Virus record (IMG/VR): IMGVR_UViG_2671180651_000017
Direction: 5' to 3' (one strand)
From: a virus
Taxonomy: Duplodnaviria > Heunggongvirae > Uroviricota > Caudoviricetes
Length of the DNA: 9,540 bases
Below the pieces are notes generated by a model. It saw only the letters and a program-made list of their open reading frames with translations, was not told where the DNA came from and did not search any database. Both the position numbers and the translations under genes were made by a program. Of this stretch, positions 81 through 150 are shown one piece after another (positions within the stretch are counted from its first letter, which is position 1; each line of letters begins with the position of its first letter).

Positions 81-108
81 AAATTAACTACACCATTAAC
101 TACACCGT
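81..108. repeat. Sub-terminal 28-bp direct repeat AAATTAACTACACCATTAACTACACCGT, left copy (two tandem 12-mers TTRACTACACCR); candidate integrase arm-type site
   Basis: Matches 9378-9405 with one mismatch (A/G). Internally it is two tandem copies of TTAACTACACC. Confidence 0.6.
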
Positions 109-110
109 TT

Positions 111-150
111 CACGAACAATATCGAACAACCACGAACAAAGATCAACACG
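111..150. repeat. Cluster of ACGAACA-type short direct repeats, left end
   Basis: CACGAACAA, TCGAACAAC, CACGAACAAAG read directly after the 28-bp repeat. Confidence 0.45.

What the first reader, a model, noticed from the sequence alone, without database searches (positions are those of the whole stretch)
81..150. Both element ends carry the same arm-like repeat organisation (28-bp repeat plus ACGAACA repeats)
AAATTAACTACACCATT(A/G)ACTACACCGT occurs at 81-108 and 9378-9405, each followed by several ACGAACA-type repeats (111-150; 9417-9519), just inside the terminal 11-mers. This looks like arm-type binding sites for the P4-type integrase (whose N-terminal domain binds arm repeats) and AlpA/excisionase on both attL and attR sides. 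The right copy also overlaps the likely int promoter, implying autoregulation.
Basis: partly seen in the sequence, partly recalled or inferred. Interest (0 to 1): 0.45.

Follow-up and report, generated by a model that had tools for sequence, protein, structure and literature searches.

The report
Integrase and excisionase sites on satellite ends
The repeats at both ends of this 9.5-kb E. coli phage satellite (a PICI) are most likely the docking sites that its P4-type integrase and its AlpA excision helper use to fold the ends together when the island moves in and out of the chromosome; this layout is already known from phage P4 and prophage KplE1, so it is ordinary apart from being duplicated on both arms.

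Summary
The 28-mer occurs at 81-108 and 9378-9405 with one mismatch (0 expected). It is a tandem pair of 12-mers with the core ACTACACC. Each copy is followed, in the same register, by four (C)GAACA hexamers 10 bp apart. Two more hexamers sit next to the right-hand core.

The window is a complete PICI-type satellite inserted between clpS and yljB/cspD. The empty site in K-12 holds a single copy of the 11-mer.

The layout matches P4 attP, whose record annotates tandem 12-bp arm repeats 16 bp upstream of int and again beyond the core. It also matches KplE1 attL, where the mapped sites of the excision factor TorI have the core GTTCG, which is the reverse complement of CGAAC.

In the rebuilt attP the two doubled motifs lie 212-213 bp apart, 132 and 81 bp from the centre. 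That equals the published geometry of the 'doubled motif' of helper-embedded PICIs, which uses a different 8-mer.

Phased CGAAC boxes also occur next to alpA.

Best reading: the 28-mer is a pair of integrase arm-type sites and the ACGAACA repeats are AlpA (excision factor) boxes. int autoregulation is plausible only by analogy. This is a new member of a known kind, of modest interest.

The parts
1..11 (+). Left copy of the crossover core (direct repeat ATAACTATCAT). The 9-bp spacer TAACTATCA is 2-10 and the attP centre is at about position 6.
   Evidence: one copy in the empty K-12 site, two copies flanking the island.
11..17 (+). Putative core-type Int site C' (TTTATAA), the inverted partner of TGATAAA at 9524-9530.
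   Evidence: the rebuilt attP reads TGATAAA-N9-TTTATAA or TTTATCA in all four att-site types. This is inference from the inverted repeat.
18..30 (-). IHF-like site (AATCAATGAAATG, one mismatch to WATCAANNNNTTR) between the core and the distal arm sites.
   Evidence: A perfect consensus sits at the same place in L006 and EcCICFT073. Such sites are not enriched in the window as a whole, so this is inference only.
83..106 (+). int-distal doubled motif: two 12-mers (83-94, 95-106) with 8-mer cores ACTACACC at 87-94 and 99-106. Proposed pair of Int arm-type sites.
   Evidence: The 8-mers are invariant in 7 elements at 4 att sites and lie 81 bp from the attP centre.
113..148 (+). int-distal phased array of four hexamers 10 bp apart: CGAACA at 113, 123 and 133, and TCAACA at 143. 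Proposed AlpA (excision factor) boxes.
7285..7300 (+). A pair of CGAACG boxes 10 bp apart, 14-29 bp upstream of the alpA ATG, inside a terminator-like hairpin.
   Evidence: Related elements carry longer phased arrays in the int-alpA spacer.
7047..7271 (-). alpA, a winged-helix 'excisionase and transcriptional regulator'. It is the proposed binder of the CGAACA boxes.
   Evidence: PF05930, E 3e-16; PHROG 2790; PDB 8c3t, AlpA family.
7363..8136 (-). A 257-aa ORF that overlaps the int stop codon by ATGA (an 'iolg'-like gene). It may be a third excision component.
   Evidence: No Pfam or PHROG hit. In PICMI satellites iolg is needed for excision (PMC10803314).
8133..9356 (-). int, a tyrosine recombinase with an N-terminal Arm-DNA-bind_3 domain (residues 8-95).
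9380..9403 (+). int-proximal doubled motif with 8-mers at 9384-9391 and 9396-9403. It starts 27 bp upstream of the int ATG and lies 132 bp from the attP centre. Proposed pair of Int arm-type sites.
9410..9445 (+). int-proximal phased array of four hexamers: CGTACA 9410, CGAACT 9420, CGAACA 9430 and CGAACA 9440. Proposed AlpA box block, equivalent to TorI block I3-I5 of KplE1.
9469..9481 (+). Conserved AATCA-N-ATA element in the A+T-rich spacer. It could be an IHF bend site or part of the int promoter.
   Evidence: invariant AATCA in all seven right arms. Inference only.
9503..9518 (+). Core-proximal pair of CGAACA boxes at 9503 and 9513. Proposed second AlpA block, equivalent to TorI block I1-I2 and, from my memory of the paper, to one of the two P4 Vis boxes.
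9524..9540 (+). Putative core-type site C (TGATAAA, 9524-9530) plus the right copy of the crossover core (9530-9540).

Best explanation
The window is a complete PICI-type phage satellite. Its two ends together form an attP of about 300 bp: 9378-9540 joined to 1-148 through the shared core.

Proposed mechanism:
- The catalytic domains of the Int tetramer bind the inverted core sites TGATAAA and TTTATAA, which flank a 9-bp spacer where strands are exchanged.
- The four N-terminal Arm-DNA-bind_3 domains bind the four ACTACACC 12-mers, two per arm. These lie 132 bp (int side) and 81 bp (far side) from the centre.
- IHF-type bends in each arm fold the arm sites back onto the core.
- The (C)GAACA hexamers are boxes for the element's winged-helix excision factor AlpA. 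They read TGTTCG on the int-sense strand and are spaced one helical turn apart.
- AlpA would coat and bend these stretches to assemble the excisive complex on the two junctions. It would use the same boxes next to alpA for its known autoregulation.
- All int upstream DNA inside the island (184 bp) is covered by these sites, so Int, and possibly AlpA, probably also modulate int expression, as in P4 and KplE1.

Shown here: the repeats, their significance, their register, the island boundaries, the conservation of motifs and spacing, and the positional match to P4 and KplE1. Inferred: which protein binds which repeat, the bends, and the regulation.
For: 1. Boundaries. The island is 100% identical in O157:H7 F8092B between clpS and yljB. 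The empty K-12 site has one core copy. An attP-type junction (right arm, 11-mer, left arm) exists in the IMG/VR contig L109.

2. Int has the Arm-DNA-bind_3 domain.

3. P4. The GenBank record annotates 'attP arm sequence repeat' 12-mers as a tandem pair 16 bp upstream of the int ATG and as a second co-oriented tandem pair beyond the core. That is the same order and orientation as here.

4. KplE1. The TorI sites have cores GTTCG, GATCG and GTCCG. They form two blocks between the core and intS, and one block has three sites 10 bp apart. The IntS arm sites lie between that block and the ATG (PMC2951348; sequence checked). The window's int-sense strand reads TTGTTCGcccTTGTTCGtcacaGTTCGcccTTGTACG, then GGTGTAGTcaatGGTGTAGT, then the ATG. 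IntS also has Arm-DNA-bind_3.

5. Conservation.
- ACTACACC x2 is invariant in both arms of seven relatives at four att sites (yljB, phoQ|roxA including the experimentally studied EcCICFT073, tqsA, smrA|abgR), while the spacers diverge.
- The inner edges of the two doubled motifs are 212-213 bp apart in all of them. The distance is 213 bp in the intact attP of the packaged cf-PICI vB_KppS-Ant and 212-215 bp in HE-PICIs.
- The window's 81 and 132 bp match the 81+/-2 and 132+/-2 published for HE-PICIs (PMC10111431).

6. The 8-mer changes with the Int clade: ACTACACC, GCAATACA, GTTTATAC, and ATGCCCCC in P4. It is always the same in both arms of one element. In L007 a change in the motif flank (ATTA to AGTG) in both arms coincides with substitutions in the Int N-domain beta-strands.

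7. Phased boxes also lie next to alpA: 7285/7295 in the window, five to six GAACAA in the int-alpA spacer of L006-L008 and EcCICFT073, and ACGAGC/ACGAAC/GCGAACA upstream of alpA in L252-L254. AlpA of EcCICFT073 activates its own promoter, and its overexpression triggers excision (PMC6092414).

8. General rule. Excision-factor operators are direct repeats one helical turn apart, often used both at att and at promoters (PMC7498355; PMC11963761).
Against: - There is no binding experiment for this element or for any PICI of this clade. The assignment of proteins to repeats rests on positional homology.
- TorI is only distantly related to this AlpA: 31% identity with pairwise E 3e-5, and TorI does not reach the Pfam Phage_AlpA threshold.
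- AlpA and Int diverge to a similar degree between clades, so covariation does not cleanly separate them.
- In EcCICFT073, AlpA had no effect on a Pint reporter (PMC6092414). That argues against a regulatory effect at the int-proximal arm, though not against an architectural one.
- An excision-factor array on the int-distal arm is not seen in P4 or HE-PICIs, nor in the KplE1 attL that was examined, so its role is unexplained.
- No consensus sigma-70 promoter was found in 9357-9540.
- The authors of the HE-PICI paper left open that AlpA binds the doubled motif.
Confidence: 0.75

Rival explanations
1. Reverse assignment. The 10-bp phased CGAACA hexamers are the Int arm-type sites, like lambda P'1-P'3. 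The doubled ACTACACC motif would then be bound by AlpA or by another element protein such as the iolg-like product.
For: The lambda P' arm has three tandem arm sites (my own knowledge). Mageeney et al. explicitly left AlpA open as the binder of the doubled motif. AlpA diverges between clades about as much as Int does, so the clade-specific 8-mer could track AlpA.
Against: - The experimentally mapped TorI sites have the core GTTCG with the same phase and the same two-block layout.
- P4 annotates the tandem 12-mers as attP arm repeats.
- Four half-sites fit an Int tetramer.
- Phased boxes, not the 8-mer, recur next to alpA, where AlpA is known to act. ACTACACC occurs nowhere else in the window.
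- The iolg-like gene is absent from EcCICFT073 and L006-L008, which keep both motif types.
Confidence: 0.1
2. The hexamer arrays are not sites for an element protein. They would be phased A/C-rich DNA giving intrinsic curvature, or sites for a host protein that binds direct repeats (an OmpR/PhoB-type response regulator, Fis or H-NS), and would only help the arms to bend.
For: In HE-PICIs and vB_KppS-Ant the stretch next to the int-side doubled motif is A-rich and roughly phased, but without a sharp consensus. Similar A/C-rich phasing persists across clades whose AlpA is only 40-50% identical.
Against: - In the window six units share the exact CGAACA and ten of twelve + strand CGAAC lie in 10-bp sets. 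That is more sequence-specific than curvature requires.
- The same boxes recur at alpA.
- The match to the TorI core GTTCG.
Confidence: 0.08
3. The repeats serve replication or packaging (iterons, or cos/pac recognition) rather than recombination. Alternatively they are a decaying duplication with no function.
For: They are tandem short repeats near the ends of a replicating, packaged element. The two 70-bp modules are paralogous (family D3).
Against: - Their distance to the crossover point is fixed to within 1 bp across four att sites and three Int clades.
- The int-proximal copy is tied to the int ATG (19-27 bp).
- Separate iteron-like repeats lie directly downstream of the primase gene at 3480-3680 (families D10, D13).
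- The motifs are invariant while the spacers diverge, which excludes neutral decay.
Confidence: 0.03

Closest known systems
Satellite phage P4 attP (Int, and Vis as excision factor)
   Same: - The Int has the Arm-DNA-bind_3 domain.
- A tandem pair of 12-bp arm repeats lies 16 bp upstream of the int ATG, and a second co-oriented tandem pair lies beyond the core.
- 10-bp phased GGACAA/GGAAGA/GGACGA units follow the int-side pair.
- Vis is a Phage_AlpA protein.
- From my memory of Cali 2004 and Piazzolla 2006 (papers not held): Vis binds two boxes between int and the core and bends the DNA, and the Int N-terminus represses Pint.
   Different: - The 8-mer is ATGCCCCC, not ACTACACC.
- The inner distance is 189 bp, not 212-213 bp.
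- There is no phased array on the int-distal arm.
- The target is a tRNA-Leu gene (my own knowledge) rather than an intergenic palindrome.
KplE1 / CPS-53 prophage attL (IntS and TorI), Panis et al. 2010
   Same: - The order is core, excision-factor block 1, excision-factor block 2 (three sites 10 bp apart), Int arm-type pair, int ATG.
- The TorI site core GTTCG equals the window's TGTTCG on the int-sense strand.
- IntS has Arm-DNA-bind_3.
- The int promoter lies inside attL and is repressed by IntS and TorI.
   Different: - The IntS arm motif (GGGTAAAA type) is unrelated to ACTACACC.
- A strong consensus -35/-10 is present there but not here.
- The paper places all five mapped TorI sites on attL. 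Here an array also sits on the other junction.
- TorI is only 31% identical to this AlpA.
'Doubled motif' of helper-embedded PICIs (Mageeney et al. 2023, PMC10111431)
   Same: A tandem 8-mer at 12-bp spacing, in two co-oriented copies, 132 and 81 bp from the attP centre. The total inner distance is 212-215 bp against 212-213 bp here. On the int-sense strand the units share TGTA (GGTGTAGTTAAT against tgTGTATTGCan).
   Different: - The 8-mer sequence differs and the Int is only 38-45% identical.
- Those elements sit in prophage late genes.
- There is no clear phased array on the distal arm.
- The paper states that the motif is unique to HE-PICIs. The architecture is not: it is also present in classical PICIs, including EcCICFT073.
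Lambda attP (P1, P2, P'1-P'3 arm sites; Xis X1-X1.5-X2; IHF H1, H2, H')
   Same: A heterobivalent Int, arm sites on both sides of the core at roughly -130 and +80, excision-factor sites as head-to-tail repeats, and IHF bends (general knowledge, and PMC2951348 introduction).
   Different: The arm-binding domain belongs to a different family. The arm sites are not arranged as two identical tandem pairs. The Xis sites are on one arm only.
Dual-purpose excision factors: Apl of phage 186 and RdfS of ICEMlSymR7A
   Same: The operators are direct repeats one helical turn apart and are present both at att and at a promoter. The IntS arm consensus of ICEMlSymR7A, TGKTGGTATC, resembles TGGTGTAGTT.
   Different: The protein families and operator sequences differ. 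RdfS shows no clear consensus site.

Membership tests
P4-type attP (arm-type sites of an Arm-DNA-bind_3 integrase) | Tyrosine integrase with an N-terminal Arm-DNA-bind_3 (PF13356) domain | tested here: met
   PF13356 E 2e-16 at residues 8-95, and PF00589 E 2e-17.
P4-type attP (arm-type sites of an Arm-DNA-bind_3 integrase) | Tandem pair of about 12-bp repeats just upstream of the int start, and a second co-oriented pair on the other side of the core | tested here: met
   Window pairs at 9380-9403 (27 bp from the ATG) and 83-106. P4 pairs at 3942-3965 (16 bp from the ATG) and 4151-4174.
P4-type attP (arm-type sites of an Arm-DNA-bind_3 integrase) | Crossover core shared with the chromosomal site lies between the two arm-site pairs | tested here: met
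   The empty K-12 site has one ATAACTATCAT. There is an attP-type junction in L109.
P4-type attP (arm-type sites of an Arm-DNA-bind_3 integrase) | The Int N-domain physically binds the repeats | not testable with these tools
   Needs gel-shift or footprinting.
HE-PICI doubled motif (Mageeney 2023) | Two tandem 8-mers at 12-bp spacing, in two co-oriented copies, 81+/-2 and 132+/-2 bp from the attP centre | tested here: met
   The 8-mer edges at 87 and 9403 lie 81 and 132 bp from the centres at 6 and 9535. The inner distance is 212 bp.
HE-PICI doubled motif (Mageeney 2023) | Motif sequence tgTGTATTGCantgTGTATTGCa | tested here: not met
   The int-sense unit here is GGTGTAGTTAAT and only TGTA is shared.
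HE-PICI doubled motif (Mageeney 2023) | Integration inside a helper prophage late gene | tested here: not met
   The island is integrated in the clpS-yljB/cspD intergenic region.
Excision-factor (RDF) operator arrays (Xis, TorI, Vis, Apl type) | Direct repeats spaced one helical turn apart within an att arm | tested here: met
   Hexamers at 113/123/133/143, at 9410/9420/9430/9440 and at 9503/9513. CGAAC-N5-CGAAC gives 6 hits against 0.01 expected.
Excision-factor (RDF) operator arrays (Xis, TorI, Vis, Apl type) | A cognate small winged-helix excision-factor gene is present in the element | tested here: met
   alpA at 7047-7271: PF05930 and PHROG 2790 'excisionase and transcriptional regulator'.
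Excision-factor (RDF) operator arrays (Xis, TorI, Vis, Apl type) | The same boxes are reused at a promoter that the factor regulates | tested here: inconclusive
   Phased boxes lie next to alpA in the window (7285/7295) and in relatives. AlpA autoactivation is shown for EcCICFT073 (PMC6092414), but the operator there has not been mapped.
Excision-factor (RDF) operator arrays (Xis, TorI, Vis, Apl type) | The factor binds and bends these sites and is required for excision | not testable with these tools
   Needs biochemistry and genetics.
Gram-negative PICI (Fillol-Salom 2018) | int, alpA and pri are co-oriented, the size is about 10-15 kb, the att site is specific, and phage morphogenesis genes are limited to a few | tested here: met
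   int, alpA, a D5-type primase, terS and a major capsid gene all lie on the - strand in 9.5 kb. The closest relatives include EcCICFT073.

The most novel reading that the evidence does not exclude
The attP of the whole PICI integrase radiation may be built on one rigid template. That radiation includes classical E. coli PICIs such as EcCICFT073, capsid-forming PICIs and helper-embedded PICIs.

The template would be two tandem pairs of clade-specific 12-mers held 213 +/- 2 bp apart, with the crossover 132 and 81 bp from them. If so, the published 'HE-PICI-unique' doubled motif is one allele of a general Int arm code (TGTA plus 4-5 specificity bases).

In the ACTACACC clade the AlpA operator (phased CGAACA) would in addition be present on both arms and at alpA. 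One helper-induced protein would then switch on the island and license excision at both junctions.
Probability: 0.45. Interest if true: 0.45.

Novelty: new member of a known kind. Interest (0 to 1): 0.3.

Why it matters
- It gives concrete, testable operator sequences for the two DNA-binding proteins that control PICI mobility: the Int arm site (A/G)ACTACACC and the AlpA box (C)GAACA(A). These apply to the experimentally tractable EcCICFT073 family, for which I found no published site map in the papers I searched.
- It shows that the 'doubled motif' reported as unique to helper-embedded PICIs is a general architectural feature with clade-specific sequence and a fixed ruler of about 213 bp. That can be used to find attP centres and island ends in genome annotation.
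- It does not reveal a new kind of mechanism.

Tried and rejected
- The search for related loci with the Int protein in genome contigs returned only 2 loci. I used BLAST against E. coli genomes and pattern scans of viral contigs instead.
- The consensus sigma-70 scan found no promoter on the int strand in 9357-9540, nor upstream of int in EcCICFT073. The int promoter therefore stays unlocated.
- Rfam gave no hit in the window.
- IHF-consensus matches are not enriched in the window as a whole (11 found, 12.5 expected). The arm IHF sites are positional inference only.
- I tried to separate Int from AlpA as binder of the 8-mer by comparing their divergence between clades. Both diverge to 40-50% identity, so this was uninformative.
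- The P4 'ori type 2' 10-bp repeats near vis are TTAAAG units, unrelated to the arm arrays.
- The first CFT073 region I fetched was a lambdoid prophage, not the PICI. The PICI was in the second region.
- The papers by Piazzolla 2006 and Cali 2004 are not held. What I state from them is from memory.
- PDB entry 8c3t (AlpA family) could not be traced to a paper.

Full report
**What is in the window.**

The 9540-bp window is a complete mobile island. It is 100% identical to a segment of E. coli O157:H7 F8092B that lies between clpS and the small gene yljB, next to cspD. In total, 38 complete E. coli genomes carry at least 80% of it.

All its main genes are on the - strand:
- a tyrosine integrase with an N-terminal Arm-DNA-bind_3 domain (8133-9356);
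- a 257-aa ORF of unknown function that overlaps the int stop codon by ATGA (7363-8136);
- an AlpA-family winged-helix protein (7047-7271);
- icd-like and DUF4222 genes;
- a D5/P4-type primase (3678-5426);
- a small terminase subunit;
- a major capsid protein.

This is the gene set and order of a Gram-negative phage-inducible chromosomal island (PICI).

The empty site in K-12 MG1655 reads ccacATGATAGATAACTATCATctatcg, with a single copy of the 11-mer that ends the window on both sides. An IMG/VR contig (L109) carries the joined form, right arm then 11-mer then left arm.

**Checking the observation.**

The 28-mer is at 81-108 and 9378-9405 with one mismatch, and none is expected by chance. It is a tandem pair of 12-mers with the 8-mer core ACTACACC at 87/99 and 9384/9396.

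Exact ACGAACA occurs six times against 1.3 expected. The real signal is the phasing. CGAAC-N5-CGAAC occurs six times, always on the + strand, against 0.01 expected. The hexamers start at:
- 113/123/133/143 in the left arm;
- 9410/9420/9430/9440 in the right arm;
- 9503/9513 next to the right-hand core.

In both arms the first hexamer starts 14 bp after the second 8-mer. A composite module of about 70 bp is therefore repeated in register.

**Comparison with relatives.**

BLAST of int plus the right arm finds relatives in 1223 of 5426 E. coli genomes. I fetched seven islands with 75-94% identical int genes. They sit at four different chromosomal sites:
- yljB;
- phoQ|roxA, which includes EcCICFT073, the experimentally studied prototype;
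- inside tqsA;
- smrA|abgR.

Every one has ACTACACC x2 at both ends, co-oriented. Each doubled motif is followed by four nnnACA(A) units 10 bp apart. In alignments of the arms the 8-mers, the ACAA cores, an AATCA element in the A+T-rich spacer and the AACACTAA-T-ATAAA stretch next to the core are invariant, while the rest diverges.

The rebuilt attP reads TGATAAA-N9-TTTATAA (or TTTATCA). Only the 9-bp spacer changes with the chromosomal target.

The distance between the inner edges of the two doubled motifs is very constant:
- 212 or 213 bp in all these islands;
- 213 bp in the intact attP of the packaged capsid-forming PICI vB_KppS-Ant, which has 47.7% Int identity and the 8-mer GTTTATAC;
- 212-215 bp in helper-embedded PICIs, which have 38-45% Int identity and the 8-mer GCAATACA.

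In the window the nearest 8-mer edges lie 132 bp (int side) and 81 bp (far side) from the attP centre. These are the values 132+/-2 and 81+/-2 published for the HE-PICI 'doubled motif' (PMC10111431). That paper called the motif unique to HE-PICIs. The sequence is unique to them, but the architecture is not.

**Which protein binds which repeat.**

Two characterised systems with Arm-DNA-bind_3 integrases have the same layout.

1. Phage P4. The GenBank record annotates 'attP arm sequence repeat' 12-mers as a tandem pair 16 bp upstream of the int ATG. A second co-oriented tandem pair lies beyond the core. 10-bp phased GGACAA/GGAAGA/GGACGA units follow the int-side pair.

2. Prophage KplE1. Panis et al. 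mapped five sites for the excision factor TorI in two blocks between the core and intS. The site cores are GTTCG, GATCG and GTCCG, and one block has three sites separated by 2 nt. The IntS arm-type sites lie between that block and the ATG and overlap the promoter (PMC2951348). I checked this on the MG1655 sequence: caGTTCGtcatgGTTCGcttcaGATCGTTGACA...GGGTAAAAAGTGGATAAAAT...ATG.

The window's int-sense strand reads TTGTTCGcccTTGTTCGtcacaGTTCGcccTTGTACG, then GGTGTAGTcaatGGTGTAGT, then 27 nt and the ATG. The pentamer, the phase, the two-block layout and the order are all the same as in KplE1.

Further points support the assignment:
- Excision-factor operators are, as a rule, direct repeats one helical turn apart. 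They are often reused at promoters (PMC7498355, PMC11963761).
- Phased boxes recur beside alpA. In the window a CGAACG pair is at 7285/7295. In L006-L008 and EcCICFT073 there are five to six GAACAA units in the int-alpA spacer. In L252-L254, ACGAGC/ACGAAC/GCGAACA lies upstream of alpA.
- AlpA of EcCICFT073 activates its own promoter, and its overexpression triggers excision (PMC6092414). In PICMI satellites AlpA acts as an excision factor (PMC10803314).
- The 8-mer occurs only at the two arms.
- The 8-mer changes with the Int clade but is always identical in both arms of one element. In L007 a change in the motif flank in both arms coincides with substitutions in the Int N-domain beta-strands.
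- Four half-sites fit an Int tetramer.

I therefore assign the 28-mer to the Int N-domain and the ACGAACA repeats to AlpA.

**Limits of the evidence.**

- None of this is binding data.
- TorI is only 31% identical to this AlpA.
- AlpA diverges between clades as much as Int does.
- AlpA did not change Pint activity in EcCICFT073.
- No consensus promoter was found in the 184 bp upstream of int.
- The excision-factor-type array on the int-distal arm is present only in the ACTACACC clade. It is absent from P4 and HE-PICIs, and its role is not explained.

**Verdict.**

It describes the recombination arms of a P4/KplE1-type attP in a PICI, which is a new member of a known kind.

The added value is threefold:
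- the separation of the two site classes;
- the fixed 213-bp ruler shared by several PICI integrase clades;
- a candidate AlpA operator.

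Noticed in passing
window 7363-8136 (- strand): A 257-aa ORF starts inside the int stop codon (ATGA overlap) and has no Pfam or PHROG match. It resembles the 'iolg' (integrase-overlapping gene) that is required for excision of Vibrio PICMI satellites (PMC10803314). It is absent from EcCICFT073 and from L006-L008 and L252-L254, which have a spacer of 365-420 bp there instead.
   Followed up: partly
window 7272-7306 (- strand): A strong terminator-like hairpin lies immediately upstream of the alpA ATG. The stem is CGTCCTCG..CGAGGACG with a GCAA loop, followed by seven U (dG -19 kcal/mol, z -3.3). 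It contains the likely alpA ribosome-binding site and the CGAACG pair. It suggests that alpA expression in this variant needs read-through or antitermination, perhaps supplied by the helper phage.
   Followed up: partly
window 7325-7362: Two copies of the palindrome (T)GTGATATCAC(A), centres about 22 bp apart, lie between the iolg-like ORF and the alpA hairpin. They may be an operator for an unidentified dimeric regulator.
   Followed up: no
window 150-888: A 740-bp stretch at the int-distal end has no annotated gene in the RefSeq record and is made of repeated modules. An 88-nt repeat is 95% identical (223-310 and 760-847). There are 72-nt and 47-nt repeats and a 27-nt inverted repeat (725-751 and 848-874). 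There are also four perfect IHF-consensus sites (AATCAAYGGGTTA at 446, 500 and 652; TATCAACCAGTTA at 706). Positions 408-464 are about 90% identical to the roi/antirepressor region of Stx phages. It could be a cos/pac region or a regulatory RNA region.
   Followed up: no
window 3480-3680: GGGTAGAGG-type direct and inverted repeats (families D10, D13, I9, I10) lie directly downstream of the primase gene. This is the expected position of the PICI replication origin.
   Followed up: no
window 2226-2307 and 2483-2507: Clusters of GTAACTTTT repeats, direct at 12-bp spacing and also inverted, lie in and upstream of the terS region. They may be a packaging-recognition or regulator site.
   Followed up: no
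L001 13538-13612; L003 241-330: The chromosomal target is a near-perfect palindrome, ATGATAG-ATAA-CTATCAT, that overlaps the stop codon of the 24-codon gene yljB. Integration keeps yljB intact. yljB is co-oriented with int and reads into the int-proximal arm, so host read-through could contribute to int transcription in the integrated state.
   Followed up: partly
L109 (IMG/VR contig) 1-300 and last 300 bases: One contig holds both an attP-type junction (right arm, 11-mer, left arm) and a junction with the clpS flank. This means either a tandem double insertion or a mix of circular and integrated forms in the assembly.
   Followed up: partly
L253 15880-15930 and L254 15880-15930 (sense strand): Just downstream of the int terminator hairpin, these yljB-site PICIs carry three to four AATATC units 10 bp apart. 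L252 has ATCGAC units there instead. This is a second, different phased repeat in the int-alpA spacer.
   Followed up: no
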